From: Amoebophrya sp. A120
Lineage: Eukaryota; Protista; Dinoflagellata
NCBI GenBank assembly: GCA_905178155.1
Contig: CAJINV010000007.1
Coordinates: forward strand, 2,957,151-3,021,150
Direction: 5' to 3'
DNA: 64,000 nucleotides
Position 1 is the stretch's first letter; every line of letters begins with the position of its first letter. Shown here in pieces: positions 500-56,472 of this stretch. The notes beneath the pieces are model-generated. The model did not search any database and had not been told where the DNA came from. It worked only from the letters and a program-made list of their open reading frames with translations. A program made the position numbers and the translations under genes.

Positions 500-2483
500 T
501 CATTTTTCCCGGTCGTCTGTCGTGGATGTGCAGAAGAAACAGTCCTTGCCAAATTGTTTCTATCCCATGAAAAAGTGTATCAGTGTAACTTTTTTGGATG
601 AGCAACATCACACAGTTCTTTCGAATGGCAGAGAAAAATTGCGCGCAAGAAGCACGTGAAATCTAGCCTGTGAAGATGCACATCCAGCATGACAAGTTCA
701 GCTGTGGTACATTGCCCGCAACGCAAAGTTACACAAACACGGTTTTTTTCTTGCATAGTTCAATCATTTTTTGGCAGCATTTTGCCAAATTGCGGCAATC
801 GTCGATCCCCGAGTGGTGCTCCCTGTCGTCTGCAAAAATGTCGCACTCGCACTTAGTGTCTGGCATGACAGATCCTCCTTTTAAACTGCAGCGCGACACA
901 AGTCTTTTTTTCCATCTTCTTCGGAAAACTTGTCAATCATGCGATTTAGACCAAGCAAGTGCGATGCTTTTGCAATGCATACTTCCCCACGAGCGGCAAT
1001 TTCAGTTGGTCTAGCAGCTCTGTCATGCCCTTGGCCTTGCGCCCCGACGCGAGCTGGTATATGCTGCAGAAAAGTCACTCACCGCAGTCGTACAAGAAAA
1101 AATGTGCTGCGGTTTGCAATTTCAAAAGCTAAGCTCATTGTCATTGCGGCCGTTCAGTATGACAGGCTTTTTTGTTGCGAGTCTCGAACCGAAGGCTAGC
1201 ACTTTGGACGCATCAGATTCAAAAACTGCATTCTGCAAGACAGCAGGCTGTCTCTTGTCTAATGACGCAAATAGTAGAGCCACACAAATTTATATGAACT
1301 TGTCTTCTGGTATCAGAGCCAGTGCACTACTTTTCTGCAGGGCCGTACGATAGGCTTCTTTCACGTTGCACCAGTGTGTGATCACCTTCCGCGCTCTGTT
1401 TTTCGACGGAAACTGGCCTGCCGCCGCGAGGGCCAACTGTGACGGGAGGCAGGATCGGAAATCCCAGTCGCCGCAGGTGAGGAGCAAGCAGTTCGGAAAC
1501 CGGGGCATGAATTCCGCGAGCCAGCGGTTGGCCACTCGCAAAAAGGGGTCCGCGGCGTCGACCTGCGTTTGCGAGATTCCGGTCAGATGCGTGCAAAAGG
1601 GGGTTATCACCGGAAACCGGGTGGGCCTGACGTATTCGTGAAACTCCGCGACGGGCTCCAAAATGTCTCGCGTTTTTCCCTCCGGAGATAAAACTTCAGC
1701 TGAATCTGCTCCACATTCCGATGTCGTTGATGTGCGCTCAAACACGATATAATCATCCTCGCAATCTTCGTTCTCATGCTGCGCTTTCGTCGCAGCGACC
1801 TGCTTCCTTCGCAGTACCACCGTTGGAAACTCAATCACCTCGTTTACGAAGCCCGGAATCTGCCACTTCGGATCTGCCCAGGCCGGGTCTCGGTTGCCGT
1901 TCGGGATGCAGTTGCACTCGAAATCGACCACGGCTATGTATTCATAAGTTGGCACGGCCAAGTCGGGTTTCTCGTTTGGCTCTGCGCCTGTACAACTAGT
2001 ACGTGTGGCAGCGCCCGGCTTTTTTCGAGAAAAGTAGCTGTCCATCTCTTTGTAGAGACAATTTTGCTTGAAAAACGTGTAACCCCTCAGTTTATCTTCG
2101 GAATGCCCTTCACCATCCTCTACTCCGAGGGGGTTGTCTTGAAGTATATCCGGACCAGTTTCATCTCCACCTATGTAGTCTGCAGACGAAGCTACTGCTC
2201 CGGCCTCCAGCATGTTGTCTCCTGGTTGCGGCGCAGGAAGTAGTGTGGTGGGAAGTAGATTAGCTGTAATTCTTTCCTCCTGTGGTGTTGTTCTGGTGGA
2301 AAACGATAAGCGGTTTAAAGGAAGTTCCCCACAGGATGGCACGCTAGTCCTGTACGCCGGTAAAGGTGTAGCAGAAATTTTCGGAAACAAGAAGGAGCTC
2401 GGTGAAGTTCTTCGTTGCTGACAGAAATAGCGATATCTGCGACCAAAACCGGAAAAAGGAGAAGGAGATCCGATCGTGGGCAT
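500..2483 (-). CDS. ERI1/ERI3-like DEDDh 3'-5' exonuclease, 4 exons (2483-1348, 1054-982, 818-758, 555-500); start codon uncertain (2483 or 2213)
   Basis: ORF 1290..2483 has VVDFEC, EVIEFP, EFHEYVRP, FCTHLTGISQ and TCGDWD. Removing three IR-bounded inserts adds KEAYRLASGRKAKGMTELLDQLKLPLVGK|HHSGIDDCRNLAK, which supplies the missing ExoIII H/D motif. Exon total is 1326 nt, in frame. Confidence 0.85.
561..757. mobile_element. Decayed introner-like element (197 bp), intron 3 of the ERI1-like gene
   Basis: Left end tatcccatgaaaaagtgtatcagtgtaact; reverse complement of right end tatgcaagaaaaaaaccgtgtttgtgtaact, close to the TIR at 10952. Flanks gtttc/gttca are imperfect. Removal of the element plus 5 bp gives MIEQFGKDCFFCT...stop at 500. 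Confidence 0.6.
824..981. mobile_element. Decayed introner-like element (158 bp), intron 2 of the ERI1-like gene
   Basis: Imperfect TIR (tgcaaaaatgtcgcactcgc vs tgcaaaagcatcgcacttgc). Flanks ctccc/cttcc match 4/5. Removal joins LPLVGK to HHSGIDD. Confidence 0.75.
1060..1347. mobile_element. Decayed introner-like element (~288 bp), intron 1 of the ERI1-like gene
   Basis: Inverted ctgcagaaaagt near both ends; flanks tggta/cgata match 3/5. Removal joins WCNVKEAY to RLASGRKAKGM in frame. Confidence 0.6.
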
Positions 2484-3457
2484 GCAAATCCAAATTCAAG
2501 TCAAGCAATTTGAAAAGATGTTTCCTCTCATTTATGTCGAGCTAATCCTATTCCCAAAATCAGTGAAAGTGTTACACAAGCGCTGCACTTGGACTTGCTT
2601 TACTCGTTGCAAAAAAGTAGATTAGAAAACTGAAGAGGCAGCGGCAAAAAAATCCTTTTTTTCACGCAGTTGAGAAACAATGTGATGCAGAAGTACGGGA
2701 CCGAAGCCGAACCATGCGAAAGGTAATCAATATCGAAGAGTTTCTTCCTGTCCAAGATTTCTCCGCACGATTAAAAGTGTTGATCAAAAAACTTTCGCTG
2801 CTCGAGCTCGACCGAGAGCAGCGGTCCTGGATCTCTATGTCTATCTCATTGATCTGCTTAAACAAGAAGGAAGTATTAGTATTTTGTTTTACACACTGGC
2901 ACTGCTTTCATACAAGCTTCTTCTACAATCCTGATGAAGCTAGAAGATGATCTCGAGGTGAACAATGTAGTGCTGGATCTTCACCTTCGGTGCGGCGAGT
3001 AAGTGCCTACCACAAGAGCGCCTGACTCGAGAACCTCGGCGCCATCTTCTTTGTACTCAAAACAAAGTCGATTCAGTACTTGTATCCGCGTCCCTCAGAT
3101 CTCCTCGAACAGGGACTGCAATCGGCGGGGGCATTGCCGGGAGTCGGTCCGTGTCTACTGCGCATCGCCCGTCACATTCTCGTCCTCTGCAAGGTGCTTG
3201 TCTACGCATGATATTGAAACGATGCTATGTACTTATTGCTCCGAGTTACTTTCAGAAGCGCCACCGCTAGTAGATGTGAAGATCATTGATTCATGATCCC
3301 GCTTGTGGCATTCTTGAGGAACTCGCCACGTTGCAGCACTCCTTGCCTTTTGCATTTCCCTTCCTGTTTGTGCAGGGCTTACACCATCCATCGAGAGTTC
3401 AGCAACCACTCGTGTGTCTCCTGAGACAGACGGTATTGCATTTTTCCCAAATCTATT

Positions 3458-4870
3458 CTATCCAAACCCACAGGTTTCTTTACAATTTCCCAATATCGCA
3501 TGCACCCAGGGCGCGAATTGCGTGAATCCAGTCCTCGTTCGCGCAAGTGCGAGGTACGTGGTCATATTCGCGTAGTAAAAACTGTGCACCTCGTCATCCT
3601 CGGACAGGTCCGTGGCCAGTCTTTTCCCCAATGTGTAAACCGTGAGCAGCGTTTTCTCGCAGAAGGGCCGCATCTTGGGCATGACGCCGCGCCATGAAAA
3701 AGCCAAGCGGCAACACTGTCGCGGCATCGGTGACGTCGGGAGAGGATTGGTGCTACTGGACGTCGTATAATCCTGACTCGTGCTTGTGTCCGCGCCGTCA
3801 GCATTTTGAACAGAATTACAGGCTTGGTCGCTCCTGTTCTCTTCCGCTGCATCCGCGGACACAACGGCTCCGCTCGTTTCTGAAATTATCCTTGTTGAGT
3901 GCCTGCATTTTGCTTCATTTCTGACATTTATTGCGTCGCTCTTCACCGAGCGCGCATCGGGTAGTTGTTCTGCGAGGTCGACCTCATAGAAGTCGTCGTC
4001 GAGGGTCGCTGCCTTCAGCAAATTGATCCCAAGCTCCTCCTGGACCGCTCGATGGGCCGCAACCTCGTCCGGCTCGTCAATCTCCACGGTCTCGCTGACT
4101 CCCAGGTCGATCAACCCTCCGAAGGCCCACTTCCACGGAGCCCGGACTTGGAACAGGAACTCCGTTTCGCTTTTATGTGTCTCGGGATGTTGATGTTGTG
4201 GTGTGCTGCGACTGCGAGCAGCACTGTCAGAGGCGTGTTGCTCTTCTGGCGATGTAGAAGTCGCCGGTCGATGGACGACCGGAATAACGGCAACGCCACG
4301 GTGCCAGTAGGGGCAGGTCGTTCGCATCTCCCATGCTGTCATACGGTTCGCCGCGCTAGGAGCCGGCGTAGGCGTTGCCGTCTGTATATCATTCCCCAGC
4401 TGGTCATCCCCCACAGCCGCCGGACGAACAGGAGCCCTCCGGGCGTGGCCAGGCTGCACCCCCTCCTGCAACCCGCTTGTACTCTCGTGGCCGTCAAAAT
4501 GGGGCTCGAAGTTGGCTTCTTGTGGGGTCAAAAAGCCGTCCACTACGTCCTGCCAGGACTTGTACTGCAGCGGGTCGCCTTGGGTCTCAAACGGCCGGGC
4601 GCCCTGCCAGCACGCGGAGAGATCGTACCCGCCTACTTCATCTGCTAGGGCTGCGCGGAAGCAGTCCTGGTGCGCCGCCCACTCTGCGTCCGTCAGAAGC
4701 GCCCGTGGGGAAGCATCTCCATCTTCGTCATCGTCGCGACCTGGCTCTACTGGTCGGGCAGCGGACGACGAGACACCAGGTAGGAAGGTGACGGTGAAAA
4801 CGACCAATTTACAAGAGGACGTAGAGGAGAAGAAACCTAACCTCAAAAAACGTTTGGAGCGAAGCGACAT
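3458..4870 (-). CDS. Nudix hydrolase, IPP-isomerase (IDI type 1)/YfcD-like, with possible N-terminal targeting peptide
   Basis: HRGVAV...FQVRAPWKWAFGGLIDL...EPDEVAAHRAVQEELGI (degenerate Nudix box), later DDEV and FAPW; hydrophobic N-terminal stretch. Confidence 0.7.
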   Translation of the reverse strand: MSLRSKRFLRLGFFSSTSSCKLVVFTVTFLPGVSSSAARPVEPGRDDDEDGDASPRALLTDAEWAAHQDCFRAALADEVGGYDLSACWQGARPFETQGDPLQYKSWQDVVDGFLTPQEANFEPHFDGHESTSGLQEGVQPGHARRAPVRPAAVGDDQLGNDIQTATPTPAPSAANRMTAWEMRTTCPYWHRGVAVIPVVHRPATSTSPEEQHASDSAARSRSTPQHQHPETHKSETEFLFQVRAPWKWAFGGLIDLGVSETVEIDEPDEVAAHRAVQEELGINLLKAATLDDDFYEVDLAEQLPDARSVKSDAINVRNEAKCRHSTRIISETSGAVVSADAAEENRSDQACNSVQNADGADTSTSQDYTTSSSTNPLPTSPMPRQCCRLAFSWRGVMPKMRPFCEKTLLTVYTLGKRLATDLSEDDEVHSFYYANMTTYLALARTRTGFTQFAPWVHAILGNCKETCGFG

Positions 4871-5438
4871 ACTGATACTTATGCTTTAATACGAAGAGAA
4901 AGAAAGAGAGAGCAAGAAAGAAACACGACCTGGCTGCATTTATTCTCTTTTTTCTTTTTTCACTAATTAACACTTGCATCATTTTTCATCCTTCGTGAGT
5001 AAACCCACCTCTTCCCTCTCGTTGCACACCCAACGCCCTGGTGCTGGTTACAGAATCAGAAAGAAAGAGCAGACGAACATAGCTTCTTCTTTTTGTTTTT
5101 CCCTGCAGGCAAACAAATCGATCAGCTGCGAGCCGTCGAGCAGCAAGAGCACCTCAGCCATCACAGCGAGCGGTGGAACCACTGAGTACTGCAGCACAAT
5201 GTGCAAGACCAAAAATTGAAGTTGATCCCAAGTTGTATACAAAGCTGAGCCGAGGACGTCATGATTTGTATGGGAGTCCTCCAAGGAGCGGAGGCGTAAA
5301 GACGCTAGTGCATCACCATGCAGAAAAGCAAGCCGATAAATTCGAATTCAAACACTGGTGGTCGCTTCGAGAGGAAGAAGAACAAGAAGATGAAAAGTGC
5401 CTACTATTGTTCTTGAAAGTCCACAACTTCCTCTGCGT

Positions 5439-8400: not shown

Positions 8401-11400
8401 TGGACCAGCTTGGCGTTTTCGCTGTTTTTCGCCGCGAGTTGGTGCAAGCGCAGGTAAAAGGCCTGCATCCTCTGCGGCACCATGCGCCGGAAGGAAAATG
8501 ATAGACAGCACGCGGAACTGCTCGTCCTGGTTTGAACAGCTTGATCGCTGCTGTCGCGACCCGAGGAAATCGCGGCCGACGAGGATGTCGCTGCACCAGA
8601 GGAAGCAGAATCAGTCGAGGAGGATAGAGCCGGCGCTCCTCCCGCTTTACTATTGCTGCGAACTAATCCGCTTTCCTCGCCTTGACATTGCCTTTCCACT
8701 GCAGCAAGCAGGTCACATGTTATACCATACACTCCTCCCGGCGTTGTTTCCTCCGCGTTGCGGAATGTCTGTGGGCGACAGCCCGGGGTGGTTTCGTAGT
8801 AGTACTCGTTGTCGCTACTTTTGAAGAAAGATAGTAGTTCCGTGCTCGTCAAATCAATCTTCGGCACTTCTCCTCGTCCACGACCAAATGAGGTTGCTGC
8901 ACACGACCCGTCAGTTGCATCGTTTGATGCGGTTGTCGTGAACTCCTCGTGGTTTTCGTTCGTGTTACTCGCACAGGGCTTTGAACATGGTCCTGCAATC
9001 TTAGAAGCTGCACCTTTGATGCCAGACGTAGAAGTTGCAGCTGCTGACCTACTTGAAGAAGACGGCGGCGCACAACCTCTACCATTAATGCTGGTCGTCA
9101 TACACCACCGCACCAAGTAGCCGCACAAGTCCGCGCAGGACAAATGGTGTCGCAGTCCGCAGGCGAAAAGGAGCAAGGATTTCTCCGGCAGGTCCGGGTG
9201 CAGGAGGTGCTTGTATTCCCGGACAGGCACTGGAGATGAAAAGGATTCTTCCGCATATTTTTGGGCATCTTTCCTGCTCGTGCTTTGTTGGCTCGGATAA
9301 CTTCTAGAGCATCCGGTCATCTGCTTGTTGCTACCGTAACTTTTCTTCTGCCCCTTCCGTAATTCCCTCTCATTTTCTGACAGCAGCAGCAGACCACGGT
9401 TTGCCTCTGAGCCCGGAACCAAATCGGCACAGCAGTTGGAAAAGGGCAGGAACCGATTCTTCGTAAAGGTGTCTGCCGGCAGAGAATGCAAGAACCTGTC
9501 CGCAACTGCACCGCTGAAGCAGCTGCTGGCGCTACGACGACTTCTATTGTTCTTCCGAAGTACAACAGACGATTGACTACTGGAAGCCCGCCGGCGGCTA
9601 CAACTACCCACCGCGTTTGGGCACCAAGGCATGGTTCGGAGAAAGGAGAACAGGTCTAGGTTTCCGAAACAGTCCAGAAACAGCCCGCCGCAATCGTGCT
9701 GCACAAATTCGTAACACCGCCAGTACGACTGCATGGCAGACCAGTCCGGCGTCACGTAGTCGTCGTTGCAGGCCACGGCTCGCAGGCGGTTCAGTTCCCG
9801 GTCGCAAAAATTCACGAACTGCGTGATCGCGCAGAGAATTCTCGCAGATTTCTGCTCTGATTCTGCAGGATGAGATGTCAACATTCTGCTTCCATTTCTG
9901 CCCATGTTTCCACCACGCCCTGGTTGCCAGTAGTGCGTGTCGTAGACATGATGTTCTTGTAGGGCGCTTTGGTTTTCTTTTTCAATATCATCCCCGTTGT
10001 CATCATTTTCTTCACATGCCAAGTTGTAGGCGACGGCTAATTCGGAAAAAATCGTTTTGAGAAAAAGCTCGCTCCGCCGCTTAGATGCGACCGTCAACCC
10101 GGGCGAGAAAAGACTGCGGACGTTCAAATGTTCGTGCAGCCACCGGAGTTCCTGTTGCTGCTGTTCGGCGACCCCAACAGCCCCCCTGTTGCAAACATTA
10201 TGACCACGCGCGTCGGACTTATCATCATATCCAGTCCCGCAAAGCGCTGCGTGTCCGTGCCCGGCCCCACCTGCAGGATTTGTTGTACCACAACTAGTCA
10301 CCAGTATACTATCTACAACGCAGACGGGCAATTTGTCCGCTACTTTGGAAACCGAGTCCAAGGCCACCCGGTCGTCACTGTGCGGCGCCATCGCCAGCAG
10401 GTGCTGTCTGCTTGCCTTCACCAGCATCAGATTCCCTTTGCCGAGGGGCAGGGCAAACTGGGAGTCGAAAAGCGAAACCGGCACACAAGAACTGTCGGAA
10501 ATATCACAACTCTCGTCCTCCCTAAAGAGCAGCTGGTACACGTTGTTCCTCGTGTATTCCAGGACGTCATCGCGGATTTCGGTCGTTGGAGCAATGGCGT
10601 TCTCGTTTCCCTTGCAGACAAGCCAGAGCGACTCTAATAGCGCGTTCCAGAGCGTGGGGTCCCGCGTCTTTAACTCATCCGAGAAATTCTGAAGGAACTT
10701 CAGCATCGATTTGTACGCCCGGTCGGCGCGCGGGGGCCACGACAGAACATGTTCTTGAAGTGGTCCTGGATGAAAAGGAACAAACTCAGAAGAATTAGTC
10801 AAAGTGGTCTGATGCAGTTCCAAGACATTTTCGTACGTTGGTTCCTCCGAACTTGCAACACAACTTCCGCTTGTCTCAAAGAAGATGAAGGATTTCGCTT
10901 CGGGCGAAAGCAGGGAGGCGTGCGAGTCTTTGTGCGCCTCGCAGTACTCGGTATGCAAGAAAAAAACTGTGTAAGTGTAAGTCTGTCATGCAAAGTGTGC
11001 GACCCTGTTGCACTTGTCATGCTAGCCAACCATGAAGTCCTATTTCATTTCCATTTGTGCTTTCACTTATTAGTTGCGCATGACAGGCTTTGTCTGACAT
11101 GCAGAACAGATTTGTAATGCTGTCACCTCAAGACACCTACACTAACACAGTTTTTTTTCTTGGATACTCGGTGATACGCGTGTACTCGTCGAGAATGTAG
11201 TGCGCAACTGTGGGGACGGAAAGTTCCTGAACTCCGTACACTCGTGCGAGAACCGACTTCAAAGCCGACCGCGCGTCACTTGTGTCGGTCTCCTGCTGAG
11301 GGACAACTACATGAGCACCACTTTGATTTTCTGTCGCCGGCAATGGCAAATTCGAATTCGTCTCGAAAGCCTGGAAAATATCCGTGTCCAGAACCAGCAC

Positions 11401-19071: not shown

Positions 19072-19782
19072 CGCTGACGAAAACCTGACTCAGCAGCTTC
19101 TACAATTTTTCTACTTACTTATCTCTCTCCCCCCACAAACAGAGGCCAAAAAAGGCAACGCAAAAAAGCAACAAAAAAAAAAGCAACTTCCACATCAAAA
19201 AGAACTTAACCATAAACTTTCTAAATCACAAGGTGAAGTAGTCAACCAGTTAAGAGACAAGGGAAGCAAAAGTCTTTTTCCATAACAAGGGAACCTGAGC
19301 ATCGGTGCGTGATCTCTAGAGCTTGTTCGGGAGAGGAACAAAGAGCAGATGAAGTAGAAGACCAAACGAAACAAAGGATCTTTTCGTCGACAAGAATCAG
19401 GAAGAAAGAACATCCTCAAGGCACCTCTTTGTCATCAGCTTCCAAAAGCACTTCCGGTCGGGGAGGCGCTGTTTCCTCTTATAAAGCGTCCTTTCATGAT
19501 CAGACTGGATAAACTATTTGCACATTCACATTCATTCATCACGACATCTATTTAGTTTTAATGCACATAGAAAAGACTTCTGTGTGACATCGACAATGAC
19601 TTTCTGAAATCAATGATAAGGCTACTGCCGTAGCTGCTCATTTGCATTGCACTACAGGGTTCTTCCACACGGAAAACTATATCGAATTTAGAGGGAAAAT
19701 CACGGCGGACAACAAAAAAATTGCAGAAGTTGCACCAGTTGCGGTCTGTTCCGAACCAATAACACGGGAAGATGAAATCGAG

Positions 19783-22700: not shown

Positions 22701-25131
22701 AAGAGGTTTTATTTTCCCCGTCAACTACAACACGACCCCGGTCCTCGTCGTCCTCGGATATAATGATCCTGTCGCGCCCCCGCTCCTGCGTCCCACCCGC
22801 TAAGTTCTTCACTTCTGGCATGAAATCGGAAATCCCGGCGTGCACGAGAAGTACCTCGTCGAAAACCGTGGCGACGTAGGGGAGATAGCCGAACAAGCCG
22901 TTGATCTGTTATCAAGTGTAAAAATGTCTGGGTCTGGAAGGTTGCCAGGTTTGTCATGCATATTTTGCACAACCCATGACGCCTGTAACGCCTGGCCGAG
23001 CATCACAGATTTTTAAAGGGCCTTCTGATGCGTATTCCGCATGAGAAACGCGCACTCCGCGTAGCACAAACTGAACTCCTCTTCCTGGTCATGCAATACA
23101 GATTTTTTTACCTTCCAAAGACAGCATCACAAGTTGCAACCTTCCAGACCCAGACATTTTTACATTTGATATCTGTTCTCGATACACAAACTCCTCGACA
23201 AAGACGGTGGCCTATCCCACAGAAAAAAGCTGGCGTGGCATATTTGCAATGCAAAAATAAATAGACAAAAAAATCTGTATTGTAAATCCGAAACAGCATG
23301 CTATGGGGCCACCCATGACAAATTTTTGCGTGTATTTCTTTTTGCATTACACCCATACTGAGTGGAGCGCGTTCACCCTTGTAGTAATTACAAATATGCC
23401 CTGCCAGCTTTTTTCTCTGGGATATGGCCAGCTCGACGCGCTGCAGATCGCCGCTCAGCGGACCACCATCGTGGTCGTGTCCTCCGAAAGGTGTAGTGGT
23501 CATCGCGCCGAGGGCGGAGAAGGGAACGTAGTTATCGCCGCTCTCATGAAAAAGCCCTCCTCGGGTGGTGCTGGTGCGGAGGTGCTGGTGCGACCCAACT
23601 GCTTGATAAAACCAAGAATCCGGTCCGTACGGAGATCTTCTCCGCGCCGCAGAAGCTGCTGTTCGGGAAGAGGAAGATGAATTGTAATTGTTCCCTACGA
23701 GTACACTTGCAACGCTGCTCGGCCGCAACACCGCAAAGACGTCTTCTTTCAAATTCGACGTGTTGTCGTTCCGCACCTGGTCTGCGCCATTCAACCCCGG
23801 GAGCTCGTGGTTGCCGCGAAGAAGCGTCACGCGGTCGGGAAGCCGCGCTTTCAAGTAAAAGACAAACAGCACCATCGCGAGGGACTCACCTGTATTTGTG
23901 CGGTGGCAGGTTTTTAAAATTTGCGGGTAAAAATAAATCGCCTGTTCGGTACTCAGGTCGGTTGTGATTTTACGGAAAATCAAAATGTAAATCAATGCAA
24001 CGAAGAGGCAAGTCATGCATAGTATACCACCAAGTGAGCCCCCAGCACTGCTGTCATCATGGAAAGACGCCACACGGCGAATCTTCCTATGCATTGACTT
24101 CTTGTATTTCGTAGCATGACAGCATGTTCTTGGGCCAACAACAAAAAAAAAGTAAGCACCGCAATACTCTTAGGCCCGCGGTCAACGTAATCACCCAGAA
24201 ACACTATGTGGGTGGACGTTTGATTCAGCAAGTCCATGTCTCGGATAATGCGCAACGTGTCCAAAAAGTGCCCATGCGTATCGCCCAGTACGTTCACAAG
24301 CGCACATCGAGCTCCTGCTGCTTGTGGAGACGTTGTTATTCTACTTGACGGGCCGCGGCGGCCCTTCGTTGCTCTGCTTTGTTCCTCAGCATCAAGGCTG
24401 AACTGCCCCAAGCGTTCCGTCATCCCGTCCACTTTTGACGCGGAGCGCGCAGCGTCGTGCTCTACTTGTGGCGCACGATCGACGTCGACTGGTGTTGCTC
24501 TCTTGTCGTCAGCTGCTGCTGTAGCTGCAGACGACTTTCTCACGATCTTCTGCGTAGTACTATGCAGTTCATCCTCCTGTCCGCAGACCCGCACGTGCAT
24601 CGGGGGGAGAACAGGATTTGTGTCGTCTTGGCCCGCCCCCGCGAGGACCTTCCAAGCTTTTTCCAGGATGTAACCCATGGACTTGAACAGCGCCCCCTGT
24701 GCGGGCGGGTACCGGGTCGTGAACGCGCTGTGGCCGCTCAGGTTGGCCTTCCTCAGTTCCTCCAAAATCTCCAGAAATAAGCTCTGCGCGCCGCGATGAT
24801 CCTCCAGGGACAGGGAGCCCAACACGGTTTCGTCACTCCACCCAAAATTCCGGCCGCTCTGCAGCCCCCGGGCCGCGAGCGACATCTGCATGTGGTCGAC
24901 GTGCGGGTCGATCAGCAGGTCCAATGTGCGCTCGACTTGCATTTCCCACTTGGCTTGCTCGGTACTGGGTGTCGTTGCAGGTGTTCTTCCCAGCACGGCT
25001 TTGCCGAACAGTGAAACTATCGTGTAATTCCACTGCAGAATTGCGAGAAAAAGCCCAGCAACCCGTCCCCGCCAGCGGGGGCGGACAGGAATTGCTTCAG
25101 TTTGGGGCCAAGCAAGGACACTCATTTTCAT
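19783..25131 (-). CDS. PPP-family Ser/Thr protein phosphatase with long insertions, 4 exons (25131-~24168, ~23889-23425, 23207-23172, 22904-19783), ~1,530 aa
   Basis: GDTHG, GDYVDRG, LLRGNHE, VHAGI, LFADP, IIRGHQ and SAPDY motifs occur in order across three ORFs. Removing two TIR elements gives RVELATVFVEEFVYREQINGLFGYLP in frame. Confidence 0.85.
22910..23171. mobile_element. Introner-like element (262 bp), TIR family A, TSD TCTGT
   Basis: tctgt|tatcaagtgtaaaaatgtctgggtctggaaggttg ... caaccttccagacccagacatttttacatttgata|tctgt. Confidence 0.95.
23213..23424. mobile_element. Introner-like element (212 bp), TSD TGGCC
   Basis: tggcc|tatcccacagaaaaaagctggc ... gccagcttttttctctgggata|tggcc. Confidence 0.92.
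23890..24167 (-). other. Intron 1 of the PPP phosphatase (boundaries ambiguous)
   Basis: Frame change between GDYVDRG and LKARLPDRVTLLRGNHE. GT-AG 24167-23890 is in frame; the interior carries gcatgac/gtcatg motifs seen in the introners. Confidence 0.6.
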
Positions 25132-26093: not shown

Positions 26094-27264
26094 TTAGCAC
26101 TTTTTGTTCGCCGCGAGAATCTCACTTCTGAGCCGCACGATATCAAATGCAAGAATGTCTGGGTCTGGAAGGTTGGAACTTGTGATGCTAACTTTGGAAC
26201 TCTGAAAAAATCTGTATTGCATGACCAGCAAGACGAGGAGTCTAGTTTGTGCTACGTGGGGAGGGCATTTGTCACGCGGAGGAGGCGTCAGGAAGCCCTC
26301 TAAAAATCTGTGATGCTAGGTTGTGTATTGCAGACATCCTGGGTCATGCAAAATATGCATAACAAACCCGGCAACATGCCAGACCCTGACATTTTTGCAT
26401 TTGATACACGACTTTCTGCTGCAAAACCAAATTCGCTTCCTTTACAGACAGCAACTCCTCGGTAATTGTTTTGTTCTTCTCCACCTCGCTCACCAGGAGC
26501 TTTTTCGTCGCCATCAATTCCGCCCGCTCCGACTTTGACAGGATCGCGAGGTTTTCCAAATTTCGTTGGATCGAAATAATGGTAAAGTCCTTGGTTTCCA
26601 GCTCGAGTTTCAACTTCTCGATCTCGCTCTCGTAGGCAAACTGGGAGCCCAGCGACACTGCGTTCATTTGTTCGGCCGCGCCGCTGGGACGAGCAGCTTC
26701 GTCCCCTCGCTGTTCGATGCGCTGTCGATGATGATCATGCTTTTCATTCTGCGGTGAATAGGAATTATACCAAAGACGGCTGCTTTCGTCGTCGTCGCAC
26801 TCACCTGCTGTAAGAGCTACACTAGCTCCACCATCATCTGGGGGCAGGTGCTCTACTAGGGACAAGGAAGAAGATACAACAAATTCGCTGGAGGAATGCG
26901 GCTTTGGTGTAGCAGAACAAGCCTGTTGTTGTGGATGCTTTTGATGCTGCAGGTTCGGCGCACCACACCCTGGCTCACCATCCGGTAGCTCAAACTCCGG
27001 GACAGGTTCCGAAAAGACGACGTCATTTTCATACTCCGCTGCAGTGCAAGTGGAATAGCTTGCTCGCTTAGTAGCTTCCGCCCCGTACAGCTCGGCCGCC
27101 CGGGCTGACAGCGCTCGCATCGACTCCAGCAACGCCTTCGGGCGGTCTCCTGCTCCCCGAGCGGATGGCTGTGGATTGTTATGTTGCCATAGCTCGTGCT
27201 GTGACGAGGCGGACGGACAGGAAGTGAAAATATTCCTGCCGGGAAGGCTTGCCTGTTGGCTCAT
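26094..27264 (-). CDS. Hypothetical coiled-coil protein, 299 aa, 2 exons (27264-26407, 26135-26094)
   Basis: Heptad-rich C-terminus EIEKLKLELETKD...LQQKVV continues as RLRSEILAANKKC* after element removal. Confidence 0.7.
26141..26406. mobile_element. Introner-like element (266 bp), TIR family A, TSD CACGA, reverse orientation relative to the copy at 22910
   Basis: cacga|tatcaaatgcaagaatgtctgggtctggaagg ... ccagaccctgacatttttgcatttgata|cacga. The interior matches the reverse complement of 22910-23171. Confidence 0.95.
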
Positions 27265-27317
27265 TTTCTTTGTGTAGTAGTTCTTTCACTATGAAGGTCG
27301 CGCCCGGAGGGCGATAT

Positions 27318-30847: not shown

Positions 30848-33800
30848 TCACCCTCGGCGAGACCAGGGGTCCGTCGGTGTAGTGGCCGAAGCTGCTGCAG
30901 CTGCGAGGTCACCATAATGCTGCTCGACCTCGCCCTCCCCTTCTGAGTCGGACCCGAGCCCCGGTGGAGCGGAAAGAACAACCGCTTTATTCATCTTTGC
31001 AGCTGCGCGCGAAGAAGATGTCGTCATCGAGGTCGGATGCTGGTACACCACGAGGTTGCTCTTTTGAAAAGAAGCAGTATAGGTCGGTGGAAAATCGTGT
31101 TGCTGCGAAAAAGCTGCTCCCTGTGCGAGTTGTGAAGAAGACCGTTTTGCTCCTTGCTGCGTCCTCGTCGTGTCATACAACGGATAGTTCCTGTCCATCA
31201 TCTGCTCGCGCAACCGCGCTTCCAACTGCTGCCGGAGGAACGCCGGCGGAGACGGCGGCTGTACCGGAAAATTTGCTCCTGTGCGTTGATTGTGCGGATT
31301 ATAACTAGTCACGCCTGTGGACGACGATGTTGTCGCGTGGTCCTCGTTTGCTGGCGGGTGCATGATCGCGCCGTCCTGACCGTCGTGCTCCCCGGCCTGA
31401 ATGAACAGTTTGTTTCCAGGAGGTCTTCCTGTGCCGTTCCGTTGCGGTAGACGGTTGCTGCCCGTCACGACTGCCGGTCTCTTGTTAGTTGTCTGCAACA
31501 CCGAGCCAAATAGTGCGCGGTCCGGAGGGAAAGCAGGATCGTCGTGCTGGGATTGTTGTTGTTCAAGAACAACACTAGTAGTTGCGTTTTCAGCGGGTTT
31601 CTGCAGATAAGGTGCCCCTGGTCCAGCTCCAGGAGCCGTTGCAGCAGTAGAAGTGGAGGAGTATGCACTAGCCCGTGCCGCTCGCTCCCACGCAATCTGT
31701 TCTGCCAGTGGGTCGCGATAATACGCGGGAGAAGAACCGGACAACAGCGGCGGAATCCTGGTCGTGCCGTTCGCAGTGGTGCTCGCTGTCCCGAGGGCCG
31801 CAGCAGTGGGAGCAACAGTGGGCGGCTCGACGCCGCCGTGGTAGTGTTGATGATTATTTGCGTTGTAGTAGTACTCCCGATCGTGTTCCGTCTCGAACGA
31901 CGGACTGGCGTTTGACGTACTATTCTGCGAAGCGCCATCACCATTGTCGTACTGCTCCACCTCGGCTCGCTGCAAGTACTCGTGCATCGCCAGCGCGGCT
32001 TGGGCCTGGAAAAAGTTGTGTTGAATGTAGTATCATCCCGCGAGGTTAAGTATAGTAAGCAAGCAACTGTAGTGAATCTAGAGCCAACCGACGACAAAGT
32101 TGCTTGTTTATTTCATGCGCAGAGTCAACAGCCAGTATACAGAGCCATTAAGAATTCTCATCTCTGATGCGCAACATTTATGTAGAAACTACAACATCCA
32201 CCGCTATAATAATCAGATCTCCATACCTGCATTGCCCGCCGCTGCTGCACGACCTTTGTGGCGGCCAAATGAAAGTAGTGTCGCTCCAACCAGAGTCGCC
32301 TTTGCTGCATCAAGATGGCCTCGTGCTCTTCCTTATGAAATGCAAAAATGTCTGGGTCTGGAAGATTGCGAGATTTGTCATGCTTGTCTGGCATGACAAA
32401 AAAGTTTGTGATGCGTGTCCAAGAAGAGACCCTTTTGCCTGTCATGCAAAAACGCAGTTTCTCATGCGAAAAACGCAACACAAAGAAGCGCAGATATTTC
32501 TCATGCATGGCTGTGCGTTACAAAGCATTCACTATTTCCAACACAGCATTACAAGTTTCCAGACCCAGACATTGTTGCATTTGATATTCCTGGCTCGCCG
32601 GGTACGCCGCGTCGCGTCGAATGTGGTTGAACTCGCGGATCTCGCCGCCCCGCCCGGCTATCGCCACGGGATGCAGATTTTCCGGCACGACTGGGTAGCG
32701 GTAATTACTATTTCCAGCAGTGTTCATCGAATTGGATGGATTGCTGTTGGCGTTGCTCATCAAAATCGGGGGCCCCATCCCGGGGACGACCCCACTAGCA
32801 CTTGTCGACGTTGTGCTCGCGAGAGACGATGAAACAGCCGTTTTCCCAGCACCTCCCGAAGTAGAGCTAATACCGCTTTTGCTCCGTTTCCGCCCGGACG
32901 CAGCGGAGGTGGTGTGCTGCGACGTGTGTCCCCCCGCCGAGTGCAGGGAACTGCTCTCCTCCTGCTCCGCACCGGTAGTGCTGTACGTGTCCAAGCGGGA
33001 CGTAAGTGCGTCGTTGGCGGAGGAAGAGTTCATCGCGTCCGGACAGTAAATCAGGTCCACCGGCGGCTCCGGCCCGTAGAACATGGAAGCTGAATTAGCC
33101 TGCGCCTCTTGAGTAGTAGAACACTCGTTCTTACTTCCCACCGCATCGTTCGCTTCCTCCACCAAGGCCTCCACCTCTGACTCCCCCGGATGCCAGAACC
33201 GGCACTTCTCCGCGCCGTGCGTGCACTTGCCCTGCAGAAAATGCCAGCACACGTCCGGAAACTTGTGGCGGACCTGCATGAGCGCCGCGTCGTACTTCGT
33301 GGTCACGTGCTGCGCACTCGCCGGCGCCCGCCGGATCTCGGAGCCCCCGGACTGCCGATGGGGCTGAAGATGAGACGAGGGTTGTTTCTTCGGTTGCTGG
33401 TTCTTGTGCAGCTGGGCGGGTGGAGTAGCAGTGGCCCCACGTTGAGCGGCGGTCGCGGTTGCGTCATCGCTTGACGTATTAACTGGCTTGTCCGTGTTGT
33501 TATTGGCCTTGTTGTTGGACTTCGTCCAACACTCTCTTCGTCCACGACCACTCTCTTCGTGGTTTACGTTTCGTTTCATCTCCGGCGTGAACATAAATGG
33601 TTGCGCCTGCATGCCATGCAAGTACAACTCTTCCTTCTCTTTCGCTTTTTTGCTTCTCGCTTTCTTCTTCTGAGCTGCGGTTCGCGGTCGCAAACTCCCG
33701 TACGCCGGCTTCGCGCCCGGGTCCGCAAAGAAACGATAGTTGATGTTCCGCTCCTGCCGTTGGGGTCTGTTCTGTTCGGTGGACTGCTTCGAGCCCCCGT

Positions 33801-33960: not shown

Positions 33961-34320
33961 TTTCACAGCGTACTGAGTTTTACTCAGGATGTAAAACAAA
34001 CAAAAGCGTCGCGGAAAAAAAACGATCCATCAATATTTTCGCCTGGATCATAGTTTCAATTCAAAATTTTTGTGTGTTATGTTTCGAAAAATTCAAAAAA
34101 GCTCGTGCAACGAGCAGGAAAATAGTTGTTGATAATGTAGATGTACGTGGAAAATTGAGTAATGTAATGTACGGAAAATGGTGATAAAATTATTTGATTC
34201 CTTTGCAATAATGTACCAGTTGATGCGAAGTCGTTGTTTAGTGTTTTCGTTTGTCGTGAAGTGAAAATCTTTAGCGAGAAATATCGGGGGTTTTCTAGTT
34301 GCCTGGTGCATTCAGTTACA

Positions 34321-45143: not shown

Positions 45144-48100
45144 TCAGTCTGAAGTGGAATCATCCCAGATCACGATCGGAGCCGCACAAACACCCCTTTC
45201 CCACAGACCGATTGGTGAGGTTGTCTCGGTAGGGGTCGCCCCGGGTCCTGTTGATGGGAATGGTGATCCCGGACGGTTTCCTTGAGCCGCCTGGTTACGA
45301 ACGCCCTCGAGGCCGCAATCCCTTCCGAAGAGTTTGGTCGGCGGGCCGCTTTCCTTTAGGATGTCATCGACGTGCTTGCTACGCCAAAACGGGAGGTTCT
45401 CACTTCCGTAACTTTGCGCCATTTCCGCGAATATTCTTACATGTTTCCTCAGTTCCCAGAGCGAATCTTCATTCTTCTGTAAAGCGGTTTTTAAAGGCGG
45501 CAGGTCCTCGATCTTAATGGAACCCCGAGATTCTGGCTCAGAACTGCACTTGTAAAAAAAGTGGATAGCAACATTTACCAGCGAAAACTTATTTTCCGTG
45601 GCGTCTTCTCCGAATGAGTCCACCCCGCGAAACTGCAACACGACTCGTCTACCATTGATCCCGTCGACATATTCGGTACTGAAGGCTGCAAGAAACCAGC
45701 GCATATTTTGCAGCGGAAGGGTGCGGAGACGAACTACGTGTGGAGAGTTGGGCTGCGAGGGTGGAGGAGCATCTCCCTCGGCTCCCGATGGCGGGTCAGA
45801 ATCATATTCTCGAACCTCGTAGTTTCGACTAAACCTCAACAAATTCCGAGCGATGACCGACCACCAGGAGGTAGGCTCCTCCTCACGGCTCGCATCTGAA
45901 GATGCGGAAGACGATCCACGAGCACCAGTATCCTGAGCAAAAACGTCCCCACACCAGAGTCAAGATGGGAAATCTGCTAGACAAATCAACCAGCTTTAGT
46001 TGTTTCGCATGACAAGTTTGTCGTCGTAGTCTGGTCCTGTTTAGCTAGTTCAGCAGCATCACAGATCTAGAATATCATGCTGATTCTAGCATTAAAAATT
46101 CCCAAACACGACTAGAAAATGCTTCTCATGGGGCTCCGCATGAGAAACTTTTTTGGCATGTAGATTGGGGTGGGGACGTTTTTACTCAGAATAACCAGGT
46201 CGCGTTCTTCTTCTTGGCACGTAGCTGCTGTACTCCTCATCCGGCCTTCCTAGCTCTTGCACAATGCGATATCCAAGATCAATCAGCCCAGACTGGTCTG
46301 CACCAGCGTCTCGCAGGTCGTGCTCTTCCCTCTCTGCGCGTGCGAGCACAGTTCGCGTGTACGAACGCAGTGCCAGTTGCTGGTTTGCGGTGAGTACGTC
46401 CTGCAGATCACGCAACCATGATGTAGTTCCCGAATCACGGTAGATCTCGCGCCGAACTGTCGTTTCCAAAAGATCTTGATAGTCAAGGGCACCTGATGCA
46501 GTTAGTGTGCTTGTGGGAAGATGAGACCTGCTTTGTTCCTGCGTCGAAGCTCGTCCAGGATCCGCAGTGGTAGCTCCTGACGGCACGACCAACGAAATCG
46601 TAAGAAAAAATCCCCCCTCCCAATATCGAAGAGGTGCGCCTTCTAATGCTGATTTGTGGCCACAAATCGCGTCTGTCCTGCAAGGAGGCAAGTCCACAGG
46701 CTCCGCCGCATTATGCAGGCGGCTTGTCATCCTGTTGGGCCTACAGCGCGGACGTTTTTCATGCTAAGCGCCTAGGCCAAAGCCTCTCTACTCAGGCTTA
46801 CTATGGGTCTGCAGTCCTCTCCAGCACGACAAACCTGATTTGTGTACGCAAATCCAGCATCAGAAACTTCGTTTTTGATATGGGGAGAGGAGATTTTCCC
46901 TTTGGATAAACGAATCAGAATCTTCCGGTCGTGTGCTGGTCACACTCCCGTATCTTGCAAAGTCCTTTATCCAGTCCACTACCCTTGCGCTGCTAAAGGT
47001 AGCAAAAAGGCTCGGGAACGTCGAAATACAATCCCTTTCCGCTGTGACAGCCAAAGAAGAACGCGCTGGTAGTACAGTAGCAAGACCGTCACTGCTCTGC
47101 TGAGCAGTGGAAGGCTCTCTCGTCGTGTAATGCGATTTCAACACCTCCGCGACATAACCTGCGGCACACTCGCAGGCCGCTGTGTAGGCTCGGTCAAACG
47201 CAGCCCTCTGCCGCTCAACCTCTGAACGAAGACCTGCTGTTCCCGGCAACAAACCGATCTGTTCTGCTTCTAGCGCGTTGCGCTTCGTTCGCACCAAGCG
47301 CAGCAGCGCACGCAGCGCTTCCGGCAGCCGGCGAGCTTCCGAAGCGGGAGCTTCCGAAAAGTTTTGTCCATTTTGGCTGTGCGCCTCGAGTGTCCGTCGT
47401 TTCCGCTGGGACCACGCGGAGGAAGTAAGTTGTATTGCCGTTCCGCGATTGTGCGCCATCCTTCGGTGGTCCCGCATCTCCTCCAGCAACGTTGTTAAAA
47501 AAGACCGCGGCACCAAATCACCAGCTTCAGGAGCGGTGTCGTCTTCTTCTACCCGAACTTCCTCCGGATCCTGCATTCTATACAGCAGTAGCACATTCTC
47601 ACCTTCTCGCTCAAACGAGCGCGCGTTTTCGCCGACTATGCGGCTGTGCAGCCCGAATGCCCGAGCCCCGGAACGGAGTGCCGCGACTGCCACCAGGAGC
47701 TGGGAAAGCTCCCCGAGCTTCTTGAGACGAGTGTCTAGTAGGTCGTGTTCTCGCGTCTGCCCGGATGGCAGTAGTCCCTCCCCCCCATGGGCACCGTTAT
47801 GTCGAAGCGCAGCTACTAGCGCGCCTCGGTCCGGCGCGGCGCCGCGCAACTGGTGCCCCATCAGCAACTCAAACGGCGCCCCATTTACGAGCCGTTCCCA
47901 CTCCTCACCGCGCAACCTCCAACCCCAAGGCTCACTCTGTGGTAGCGACGGTCTCTCAAACTCAAACATGTCCCGGAAAAACTGCAGTCGCGGGTAGAGC
48001 GCGTATAAGTCAGAAGATTGCTCATTCTGTCGATTCGCTGGTGTGATCACCTGCTCTGCATCAGGAATATCACCCGCATCAGCGAGTTCCTGCGCAGGAG

Positions 48101-53372: not shown

Positions 53373-54354
53373 GGTTTCTTTTCGTTTTCGGCAGTGAGGA
53401 ACTGCATGCTTTTACTCTGGGCTCCGGGGGGTCACAGCTGGCATTTTCTTGGAGGAGTGCTGTCGTCCGAAACGTCAATTGATTTGCACGGCAAAGCGTG
53501 CAGTGCTTGCTAATGCTGTTAAACTGTTAATTTTCCACTAAAAGAAAAGTCCACGATAATTTTATACTAAAGTTAAGATAGTTACAGCAAAACATACTAC
53601 AGTCGGCGCGAGATAAAGACGCCTCAAAAAGGCAAACTGTCCCCCTCCATGTCCACCCCTGAAAAATTGTACAGAAACGCGATCGCGTTGTTTGGTTTCA
53701 TTTTAGAAATAATGTATCAAAACGCCAAATCCATACCAGTCTGCAGCAGGACTCGTCCGCGAAGGCCTGCCACTGAGGGGAGGAACAGCCGCTGCCTCGC
53801 CCCTGCAATATTATATCGGACGCACGTGTCGTGTGACTTCAACTTGAAATCAACGTTGCGTCTCACAAGATCTCGACGGACCTGACAAGATCTCAAGTTG
53901 ATCTTTCTTCTTCGCCTACGATGTGCAGAAGATCCAAGATCTTTCCACGTTGTGAATGCAAATAGATCACGAGGAGCACCTGCTGCGTCAACAAGATGAA
54001 GATATTGCCAAAATCGAAAAATACAAACGCTTTCTCAATAAGCACGGACCTCTGACGATCCATCTTCTCTTGTGAATCATTTGTAGTCTTGTCTCGCGAT
54101 TATAACAGGGTGATCATTGTCCTAGCGAAGTAAAACAGGCGTAGACGTCGGAGGCCTTTTTTCCGGTCGTCGAGAATGCGAATCAATTCATTATACTCAG
54201 TTTTTCTTTTTCTATTGCGCGCACGATTTTTGAGCGACGGGAACGTCAGAACTACTTCTCTCGGAAGCTTGGAGAAGGATTATGCGCATCTTCTCCATTC
54301 TAGCACCGCACCAAAGCTGAGTTTAAGTAGGTACAACTCCTGTGATAATGACAT

Positions 54355-56472
54355 TCATTCTGCGCGATCCACGCGTCGCCACTGGTTATCTAGGTCCTCC
54401 TTGAAGATGCGAACGGTTTCCTCCTCCCCGCAGGAGAGGCAGACACACAACCCCGTCACGGACCACGTGACACGGTTGACCGGGAGGTTGTTCTCTACAT
54501 GTATCTATCAAATGCAAAAATGTCTGGGTCTGGAAGAGTCATGCTGCTTTTGCATGACACAGTAGGGCTGTCATGGAAGCTCTAGCATCACAGGTTTCGA
54601 GAAGCTTCCGCAATGCCAAATCCGCATGACAAATGCCCCACTTTGGTGACAGAAAGTGGGCAGCTTTTGCTGCCTACGCATGAGAGATTTTTGTGTGCTG
54701 TGAAATGCGCATCACAAGTTTGCATTCTTCCAGACCCAGACATATTTGCAATGCATAGTATCGTCGCGCTGTTCTGCCAGTTCAGTCCCTCCATGGTCTG
54801 CACCCATATTTTGCACGTTCCGTCCTCGTATCAAAAGTAAAAATGTCTGGGTCTCGAAGAATGCATGTTTGTCATGCTTGTCTGGCATAACTTCTAAATC
54901 TGTCATGCACGTTACCCAAGAGCTCCATTTTTCTGTGATGCAGCAACGCAGTTTGTCATGCAGAATAGGCAACACCTAGAAGCTCAGAAACTTGTCATGC
55001 TAAGCCAGTATTTGTGGCCTCATCATGAGACGCCACCCAGCATCACAAGTTTCCAGACCCAGACATTTTTACATTTGATACCTCGGAACCGGAGGCGAGA
55101 AAATTCGAGGGGATGCCGATGTTCGGTCGCCAGGCGACGGATCGCACGGGCCCTGCATGAGAGGTCGGGGGCGGGACGGTGGAGCCCCCTCCAGACGGGT
55201 GCTGGTCTCCTTCGGGGTTTGGTGGCACTGGAGGTGAATCGCCGCTACTGCTCAGAGTGCCCTCTTCCACCCACTTTTTGTCGTCGGCGTTCCAGCGCCA
55301 TATTTTCACGTTGGAGTCGAAGCCGCCGGACACTAGTCTCCGCGGCCGCAGCGCGGGCATCATGTACCCGCCCTGCACCGCAGGGCCGGAGGCGAGGGTC
55401 GCCGGGCTGACGGGCACCGCCCAGCTCACGCTGGAAACGCCGTTTTGATGGGCTTTCAGCACGCCAATCTTCATTAGGGGGCCCGTCTGGTTTTGCGCCT
55501 CGAAAATGGTCACGAGGCCACTGGAGGAACCCGCGGCAATGAACAAGCCGAATCTGCGAAAATAAAAATCTTCTCAATTATCCGATGCAAAAAGTCTACC
55601 TCGATTCAGGGTTGGTTCTCTTCCACGTGCAGCTGCGGCGCATGATGTCGAGACAAACAAACCTCCAATTATCAGGAGTCTCATTTCAGCCTCTTCTTCC
55701 CGTCCTATGCAGCATCTAAGTATGCGCAATAAGATCCGATCGATAGATAAACATTGAGAAATAATCGTAATCCACGCAATCAACACAATACTCTTTCGGC
55801 CCTATCTGCACAGTTGTGGCAGCCCCGTCCAGCCTTTCTCGCCACACCAGGGACCAGTCGCCGGGCCGCCCTTCTCGCCAAAGCATCACACTGCCGCACG
55901 CGCCGCACGCTGCTATCATCGTCCCTTGTGTCGGGTCGCTCCAGCAGATCTGCTGCAACGGGCCGGCTACCTGTCGTTTTTTGTTATGTTTCGTTTATGT
56001 ACTATCTCGAGAACTTCCACGGACACGGAGACTCGTGCAATTTACCTTCTACGAGAATCTGCTAGAATTAGCCGTGTCGAGACACCAAACAAATCTTCCA
56101 CTGAAACCTATACCCAAAACCACAGCAGGCATCACAATCACTGTTGGTAGGTACGTAGAAAGAAAAAACATATACATCTGGGTGCTCCAGTCTGGCGACC
56201 AGTCTGGCTTCTTCTGTGCCCGTGGCCAACTTTGACACAATATTCTCCCCCGCTGTGGAGATTTCGTAGACAAAAATCACCCGGTCGCCGCAGACCGCGA
56301 GCCGTTTGCCATAGTAGTCGATGGCCAGATCCACGATCTGGGTGTTCTCCGGCACGTCAATCGTGCTGTCGGCCACCAGATTCGTGCTCCCCCCGCCGCC
56401 GCTGTAGATGGGAGCCGATGTCATGTACTCGCGCAGCCGCGCGTCCGCGGGCAACGTCGGGGGCGCGACCAT
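54355..56472 (-). CDS. SEC13: Sec13 WD40 protein (COPII/nucleoporin), 386 aa, 5 exons (56472-56176, 55970-55792, 55553-55081, 54823-54758, 54500-54355)
   Basis: DYYGKRLA, GPLQQICW, GPKEFGLFIA, AHQNGVSSVSWA, RLVSGGFDSNVKIW, VRSVAWRPNIG, LASGSE|DGTCKIW, RVTWSVTG, KEDLDNQW. Two GT-AG introns (56175-55971, 55791-55554) and two introners; exon total 1161 nt. Confidence 0.9.
54506..54757. mobile_element. Introner-like element (252 bp), TIR family A, TSD GTATC
   Basis: gtatc|tatcaaatgcaaaaatgtctgggtctggaaga ... tcttccagacccagacatatttgcaatgcata|gtatc. Confidence 0.93.
54829..55080. mobile_element. Introner-like element (252 bp), TIR family A, TSD CCTCG
   Basis: cctcg|tatcaaaagtaaaaatgtctgggtctcgaa ... 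ttccagacccagacatttttacatttgata|cctcg. Confidence 0.95.

What the first reader, a model, noticed from the sequence alone, without database searches (positions are those of the whole stretch)
561..55080. Twelve TIR/5-bp-TSD elements act as non-canonical introns, all inside coding exons
Seen: elements at 561, 824, 1060, 10952, 22910, 23213, 26141, 32334, 45929, 46596, 54506 and 54829 (158-313 bp) have terminal inverted repeats, usually TAT...ATA. They are flanked by 5-bp direct repeats that are perfect in 9 cases (CTCGG, TCTGT, TGGCC, CACGA, TTCCT, ACCAG, AACGA, GTATC, CCTCG). Deleting the element plus one repeat restores the frame every time, including in Sec13 and at the exonuclease HHSGIDD motif. 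I found none in intergenic DNA. Known: IR-DR introner elements were reported in Amoebophrya (Farhat et al. 2021). Inference: these are MITE-like DNA transposons that are removed precisely from RNA, and how they are excised is unresolved.
Basis: partly seen in the sequence, partly recalled or inferred. Interest (0 to 1): 0.9.

Follow-up and report, generated by a model that had tools for sequence, protein, structure and literature searches.

The report
Transposon introns of the parasite Amoebophrya
Twelve short transposon-like inserts interrupt seven genes of the marine parasite Amoebophrya; assembled transcripts lack seven of the eight that could be checked, likely because their paired ends mark the cut, an intron type described in this organism in 2021 whose splicing machinery is still unknown.

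Summary
Real, and already described. All 12 inserts are at the stated starts (158-313 bp, inverted ends, 5-bp flanking repeats, 9 perfect). A window exon is 100% identical to a protein labelled Amoebophrya sp. A120, and the inserts fit that strain's introner elements (Farhat 2021). RNA-like contigs of one sample skip exactly element + 5 nt at 7 of 8 elements laid; a DNA contig keeps the three exonuclease inserts. Corrections: 54829 also reads as a GT-AG intron; 'all exonic' is weak evidence of targeting (window about 73% coding). Additions I did not find in print: three imperfect repeats put the cut inside the repeat, 1-2 nt before TAT (only one sets the lower bound). A metagenome assembly gave 290 more elements: the duplication is strictly 5 bp, both orientations occur, no G or AG is favoured at the cuts, and an 8-nt internal motif lies in mirror layout. 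Best reading: MITE-like introners cut at a fixed distance from the terminal RNA hairpin. Catalyst untested: cut-and-ligate about 50%, relaxed spliceosome about 40%. The scan noted similar introns before on other genomes.

The parts
561..757 (-). Introner element, 197 bp, repeat copies differ at 2 of 5; last exons of the exonuclease gene
   Evidence: Contigs of X3 and X4 skip 556-757 = 197+5; DNA contig of X1 unbroken
824..981 (-). Introner element, 158 bp, repeat copies differ at 1 of 5; just before the HHSGIDD motif
   Evidence: X3 and X4 skip 819-981 = 158+5; removal raises the family HMM score from 147 to 189 bits
1060..1347 (-). Decayed introner element, 288 bp, repeat copies differ at 2 of 5; sets the cut 1-2 nt before the element
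   Evidence: X3 record 9 joins 1349 to 1055 with no letters between (table 8)
10952..11166 (-). Introner element, 215 bp, high-copy family, in a 4476-aa gene without Pfam match
   Evidence: Joins frames of 2641 and 1835 codons; 61 DNA contigs of X1 run off into unlike flanks at 10952; not bridged by RNA contigs
22910..23171 (-). Introner element, 262 bp, main family
   Evidence: X3, X4, X5 skip 267 = 262+5
23213..23424 (-). Introner element, 212 bp; 36-nt exon between it and 22910
   Evidence: X3, X4, X5 skip 217 = 212+5
26141..26406 (-). Introner element, 266 bp, main family, 82% like 22910 in the opposite orientation
   Evidence: X4 and X7 skip 271 = 266+5
32334..32586 (-). Introner element, 253 bp, main family, in a CCCH zinc-finger gene
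   Evidence: X7 skips 258 = 253+5; Pfam
45929..46193 (-). Introner element, 265 bp, in a protein kinase gene
46596..46908 (-). Introner element, 313 bp, same kinase gene
54506..54757 (-). Introner element, 252 bp, main family, in Sec13
54829..55080 (-). Introner element, 252 bp, main family, in Sec13, opposite orientation to 54506; also reads as GT...AG
508..2495 (-). Host gene: ERI1-type DEDDh exonuclease, three elements
   Evidence: PF00929; 30 homologs; X3 contig of 1597 nt
54355..56472 (-). Host gene: Sec13, two elements and two GT-AG introns (55554-55791, 55971-56175)
23890..24167 (-). Ordinary GT-AG intron (starts GTAT); control showing the contigs are spliced RNA
   Evidence: Skipped in X3, X4, X5
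32006..32226 (-). Ordinary GT-AG intron (starts GTAT); control
   Evidence: Skipped in X7

Best explanation
The twelve inserts are short elements with inverted ends and 5-bp flanking duplications, likely non-autonomous DNA transposons, that sit in exons of Amoebophrya genes; assembled transcripts lack the element plus 5 nt at seven of eight sites checked, likely because the paired ends form an RNA hairpin that is cut at a fixed distance and re-joined by a probably spliceosome-independent system. Steps. (1) Insertion: a transposase supplied in trans makes a 5-nt staggered cut (5-bp duplication shown; enzyme inferred, not found), probably binding the mirrored 8-nt internal motif (motif shown, role inferred). 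(2) The transcribed ends pair (predicted). (3) The cut falls 1-2 nt before TAT and 4-3 nt after ATA, so the mRNA keeps positions 1-3(4) of the first repeat copy and (4)5 of the second (shown at 1060; 561 and 824 agree but bound it on one side only). (4) The pre-insertion message is restored whatever the flanking bases, orientation or codon phase (shown for length and frame). (5) An endonuclease plus RtcB-type ligase does the chemistry (inferred, untested). Steps 1-4 as a class about 0.85; with step 5 about 0.5.
For: RNA: 7 of 8 laid elements skipped by exactly length + 5; the same runs skip two GT-AG introns; DNA contig spans 300-10978 unbroken. Register; Table S4 of Farhat lists nine predominant A120 end pairs, all N-T at the 5' side, compatible with a cut 1 nt before TAT. 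Duplication: 95 of 114 paired family copies in a metagenome assembly have a perfect 5-bp repeat, and no other length from 3 to 9 exceeds 1 of 114. Frame: of 290 elements, 121 lie in stop-free spans of 300+ codons after removing +5, against 36-48 for out-of-frame sizes; 16 of 21 copies with clear frames on both sides need 2 mod 3 (p 7e-5). Against spliceosomal end chemistry: G before TAT in 58 of 177 (background 0.313, p 0.69); AG at repeat positions 3-4 in 14 of 177 against 13, 9 and 11 at other positions; GT-AG at that register 4 of 121; end base composition is the same at the 5' and 3' side; 35 copies same and 41 opposite orientation. Precedents: hairpin-triggered RTCB-dependent SOS splicing (PMC12779559); Euglena nonconventional introns (PMC12501133, PMC11282704).
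Against: The class is known, and a 2024 review reads it as an adapted spliceosome. All 4 ordinary introns found in the window start GTAT, matching the N-TAT start of the elements. SOS splicing is imprecise; these junctions look precise. All RNA-like runs are one sample, are only guessed to be RNA, and are contigs that drop rare forms. The register rests on 3 elements, one decisive. 5 of 21 clear-frame copies did not fit 2 mod 3. The internal motif is slightly strand-biased relative to the host (171 vs 223, p 0.01), and single families are skewed in orientation (13:2, 5:1). The 824 and 1060 hairpins are weak (z -2.1, -2.6) with TAT predicted partly unpaired, yet they are removed. No transposase or ligase gene was found or could be searched.
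Confidence: 0.5

Rival explanations
1. Same elements and hairpin, but a relaxed U2-type spliceosome removes them: N-TAT mimics the host donor GTAT, and the hairpin replaces U1 and the AG in placing the ends.
For: 4 of 4 ordinary introns start GTAT. The paper reports 83 of 89 spliceosomal proteins, U1 snRNA and snRNP27 not detected; loss of SNRNP27K goes with a +4 U donor preference in yeasts (PMC10581693 abstract). A25 repeats start TTA and its end pairs start TT, so U+2 and A+3 would be kept in both strains (my inference). A strain without such introns has U1. 54829 is GT-AG at this register.
Against: No enrichment of G at +1 or AG at the 3' end in 177 copies, although spliceosomal step 2 normally needs them (own knowledge). 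Ends are interchangeable and would be buried in a duplex. U1 proteins are present, so missing U1 RNA may be a search failure. GTAT may instead reflect descent of ordinary introns from decayed elements: 3 of 4 carry the internal motif (p 0.001).
Confidence: 0.4
2. The junctions are reverse-transcriptase jumps across a hairpin between short repeats; the genes are broken or read otherwise.
For: Hairpin plus direct repeat is the classic setting for template switching (own knowledge); no direct RNA reads were available.
Against: Retention truncates all 12 frames, Sec13 included; frames are kept open across 290 elements of a second assembly; weak hairpins with mismatched repeats are skipped too.
Confidence: 0.04
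3. The elements are cut from DNA, like ciliate internal eliminated sequences, before the genes are transcribed.
For: TA ends and precise exonic removal recall IES (recalled); Amoebophrya is an alveolate.
Against: DNA run X1 holds one contig over 300-10978 without a change and none with the joined forms at 555/758 or 818/982. X1 may be the window's source and contigs hide rare forms; only these elements had a DNA control.
Confidence: 0.03

Closest known systems
Introner elements of Amoebophrya A120 (Farhat et al. 2021, PMC7789003)
   Same: Same organism label; repeat starts TAT, 7 variable bases, AAA; flanking direct repeat; about 240 nt; RNA-supported non-GT-AG introns; many families.
   Different: Nothing in kind. 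The paper gives repeats of 3-5 nt and calls the border unknown; here the duplication is strictly 5 bp and the cut lies 1-2 nt before TAT. I did not find the internal motif in its text or supplement text; its figures could not be seen.
Nonconventional introns of Euglena (PMC12501133; review PMC11282704)
   Same: Paired ends, direct repeats at borders, no GT-AG, proposed MITE origin, fixed spacing between paired motif and cut, machinery unknown.
   Different: Signature 5'-N3CDG...CH'GN5-6|R is absent; motif is TAT...ATA with shorter overhangs; unrelated lineage.
SOS splicing in C. elegans and human cells (PMC12779559)
   Same: DNA transposon removed from mRNA near paired terminal repeats, non-GU-AG sites.
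   Different: SOS is imprecise and leaves indels; here the dominant junction restores the message exactly. AKAP17A, CAAP1 and RTCB were not searched here.
Spliceosomal TIR introners of Symbiodinium, Aureococcus and others (PMC9860276)
   Same: MITE-like, TIR plus duplication, no change in mRNA length.
   Different: They carry or co-opt GY/AG sites; these show no such bias.
A120 introner family 38 with integrase-like ORF (PMC12130899)
   Same: TIR element in the same organism; integrase-type enzymes make about 5-bp duplications (recalled).
   Different: Its ends were not seen, and no such ORF is in the window or the loci; a lead only.

Membership tests
Amoebophrya A120 introner elements | Occurs in Amoebophrya A120 | tested here: met
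   157-aa Sec13 exon 100% identical to P0031, labelled A120 by its source; A25 58%; whole 386 aa reproduced
Amoebophrya A120 introner elements | Inverted repeat joining the two intron ends | tested here: met
   12 of 12 pair better than shuffles
Amoebophrya A120 introner elements | Repeat starts TAT, 7 variable bases, then AAA | tested here: met
   21 of 24 ends start TAT; A at positions 11-13 in 474, 495 and 500 of 532 ends chosen for TAT
Amoebophrya A120 introner elements | Direct repeat of 3-5 nt overlapping the exon-intron border | tested here: met
   5 bp, 9 of 12 perfect; cut inside it
Amoebophrya A120 introner elements | RNA-supported intron, mostly not GT-AG | tested here: met
   7 of 8 laid are skipped, none of the 7 GT-AG; 1 of 12 can be GT-AG
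Amoebophrya A120 introner elements | Repeated in the genome | tested here: met
   5 of 12 are one family, 63-82% alike; 61 contigs with unlike flanks at 10952
MITE (non-autonomous TIR DNA transposon) | TIR, constant-length duplication, no coding capacity | tested here: met
MITE (non-autonomous TIR DNA transposon) | Cognate autonomous element with the same ends | tested here: inconclusive
   Longest frame in the 5 longer pairings is 150 aa; no genome held
MITE (non-autonomous TIR DNA transposon) | Empty site in a relative | tested here: inconclusive
   No fetched locus overlapped a window gene
Spliceosomal (U2) TIR introners | GY and AG sites carried or co-opted from the duplication | tested here: not met
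   No G or AG bias in 177 copies
Spliceosomal (U2) TIR introners | Lariat intermediate | not testable with these tools
   No raw reads laid for this organism (X9: 0 reads)
SOS splicing | Imprecise excision leaving indels | tested here: not met
   One exact junction per element in contigs; rare forms would be hidden
SOS splicing | Needs paired ends, AKAP17A, CAAP1 and RTCB | not testable with these tools
   No genome or genetics
Euglena nonconventional introns | 5'-N3CDG...CH'GN5-6|R signature | tested here: not met
   Ends are N-TAT...ATA-N4
Ciliate-type DNA elimination | Joined form present in DNA | tested here: not met
   X1 unbroken over three elements

The most novel reading that the evidence does not exclude
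Amoebophrya A120 runs a precise, spliceosome-independent 'measure from the hairpin' splicing system: it cuts 1 nt before TAT and 4 nt after ATA whatever the bases there, undoing any 5-bp-duplicating insertion exactly. That would be an error-free counterpart of animal SOS splicing that frees tens of thousands of MITEs to live in exons, and decayed elements would then turn into ordinary GTAT-AG introns.
Probability: 0.3. Interest if true: 0.8.

Novelty: already known. Interest (0 to 1): 0.3.

Why it matters
The elements are ordinary for this genome: the paper counts 29,850 in A120. What stays open is how introns with no fixed end bases are removed exactly. Imperfect duplications give a cheap way to read the cut register from existing RNA-seq, and the lack of any G or AG bias makes spliceosome versus cut-and-ligate a sharp test. 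No paper in the library holds both 'Amoebophrya' and 'SOS splicing'. The rule 'TAT...ATA plus 5' also helps annotate metagenome contigs of these abundant parasites.

Tried and rejected
No genome was held, so no genome-wide exon test and no search for transposase, RtcB or U1. 10952 had no bridging RNA contig (no evidence either way). Viral contigs: 0 matches. Rfam: 0 matches. A short stop-free test on 67 copies did not discriminate (47 for +5, 39-47 for other sizes). A coding-flank test gave 17 of 67 against 359 of 1500 random places, confounded by neighbouring elements; exon enrichment in the loci is therefore not shown, and 77 of 290 elements got no host call. Reading the register from 36 mismatched duplications without RNA gave only 2 exclusions (cut 0 once, cut 1 once), and mismatch position was not significantly uneven (p 0.19). 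A GT-AG predictor on the loci was mostly noise; GTAT led weakly (14 of 119 vs 3.7% background). Ordinary introns showed no significant end pairing. My first bound for 1060 (1337) was wrong and was corrected to 1347.
Full report
Observation. All twelve elements are at the stated starts, 158-313 bp, GC 0.40-0.51, with inverted ends and 5-bp flanking repeats; nine are perfect and are those named. A motif-led scan found 7 with a perfect repeat against 0 in each of 20 shuffles. The ends of 12 of 12 pair better than shuffles. No copy lies outside genes in the window, but the window is about 73% coding, so this is weak (p 0.02; 0.11 by gene).

Host genes. All are on the minus strand: a DEDDh exonuclease, two genes without Pfam match, a phosphoesterase-domain gene, a CCCH gene, a kinase and Sec13. 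Each element brings a premature stop if kept. Removing element + 5 restores the exonuclease C-terminus: 189 bits against 130 unspliced, 186 and 178 for +2 and +8, on a profile of 30 homologs. A Sec13 exon is 100% identical to P0031, which its source labels Amoebophrya sp. A120; removing both elements and two GT-AG introns gives its 386 residues exactly. That record is an annotation, not proof. Homologs fix the junction at 54829 but not uniquely at 54506.

RNA. Eight elements were laid. Contigs of X3, X4, X5 and X7 (one sample, RNA by guess) skip 202, 163, 293, 267, 217, 271 and 258 nt, each the element + 5, and also two GT-AG introns, which shows they are spliced RNA. The 1060 joint is read from the pieces of X3 record 9. 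DNA run X1 spans 300-10978 unbroken and lacks the joined forms. Contigs hide rare forms, so 'precise' means the dominant product.

Register. With a perfect repeat the cut can slide over six places. At 561 the intron may start 0-3 nt before TAT, at 824 0-2 nt, at 1060 only 1-2 nt. The common window is 1-2 nt before TAT and 4-3 nt after ATA, and all five mismatches fall in the removed halves. None of the seven junctions is GT-AG at any placement; 23213 can be GC-AG at another register; the unlaid 54829 is GT-AG at the 1-nt register. Table S4 of the paper lists nine predominant A120 end pairs, all with T second, compatible with 1 nt but possibly shaped by the aligner.

More copies. One family pattern hit 145+ places in metagenome contigs; 143 loci were stored. 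Of 148 matches examined, 114 had a partner end and 95 of these a perfect 5-bp repeat; lengths 3, 4 and 6-9 gave at most 1. In 80 long loci, 290 elements were called (241 perfect, 49 with 1-2 mismatches). Removing +5 left 121 in spans of 300+ codons, +2 and +8 gave 117 and 114, other sizes 36-48. In 177 perfect copies with a host strand there is no excess of G before TAT (58, p 0.69) or of AG at the 3' cut. Ends are symmetric; orientation is 35 same to 41 opposite, with skew in single families. An 8-nt motif is 60-fold enriched and mirrored. No autonomous copy was seen.

Mechanism. Shown: constant 5-bp duplication, repeated families, removal from RNA of element + 5, cut inside the repeat. Predicted: the terminal hairpin. 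Inferred: a trans-acting transposase, the motif as its site, the hairpin as the ruler, and the catalyst. I put cut-and-ligate at 0.5 because four or five end positions are free and the ends are interchangeable. A relaxed spliceosome gets 0.4 because N-TAT matches the GTAT of 4 of 4 ordinary introns, and U1 RNA and snRNP27 were not detected in this strain. Template switching and DNA elimination are unlikely.

Literature. Farhat 2021 (PMC7789003): I saw the abstract, sections 10, 11, 12, 16 and 32, passages, supplement part 3 of 5 and some figure legends, no figures. It describes A120 elements starting TAT-N7-AAA with 3-5-nt repeats, 29,850 copies, border unknown, no transposase found; its Figures 3 and S19-S25 may already show the register or motif. 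PMC12130899: passages and section 6. PMC11282704: passages and section 6. PMC12779559, PMC12501133, PMC12005148, PMC9860276: passages. PMC10581693: abstract. 'Not found in print' rests on searches of this library only; Roy et al. 2023 was seen only as a reference entry. Three earlier scan notes on other genomes name the same paper; I did not test them.

Verdict. The observation and its reading are right, and the class is already known in this organism. The additions are modest and the register rests on three elements. Interest 0.3; the boldest reading has probability 0.3 and would deserve 0.8.

Noticed in passing
window 27290 to about 28725: A 1.4-kb repeated element between two genes: TAT start with loose ends of other copies at 27289-27290 in X3, X4 and X7, a 21-nt perfect inverted pair (27318/28724), 109-bp tandem units and a 67-nt-arm hairpin. 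No matching right end or 5-bp duplication found, no copy in the loci.
   Followed up: partly
inside the elements; loci L001-L143: Motif GCAT[GC]A[CG]A: 34 of 47 window hits fall in the elements; 817 hits in 290 elements against 13.5 in shuffles; reversed in the first fifth (141:2), forward in the last (121:2); present in 145 of 155 elements outside the main family pattern.
   Followed up: partly
window 23890-24167, 32006-32226, 55554-55791, 55971-56175: All four GT-AG introns start GTAT, are 205-278 nt, and three carry one copy of the internal motif (p 0.001); possibly decayed elements.
   Followed up: partly
80 long loci: The same families (best 68-95% identity to window copies) occur in a metagenome assembly, 290 elements in 365 kb of partly overlapping loci chosen for holding one; exons between them are often 40-60 nt.
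   Followed up: partly
L049 3001-3972; L031 571-1051; L051: Longer family copies (481-972 bp) with perfect duplication and unrelated internal DNA, no long frame.
   Followed up: no
whole window: All long frames lie on the minus strand, as in the unidirectional clusters described for Amoebophrya.
   Followed up: no
window 59278-60921 (-): One frame carries a SelR (MsrB) domain and a SET domain.
   Followed up: no
window 56990-57850 and 58456-58880 (-): Two neighbouring genes share a similar N-terminal coding stretch, suggesting a diverged tandem duplicate (read).
   Followed up: no
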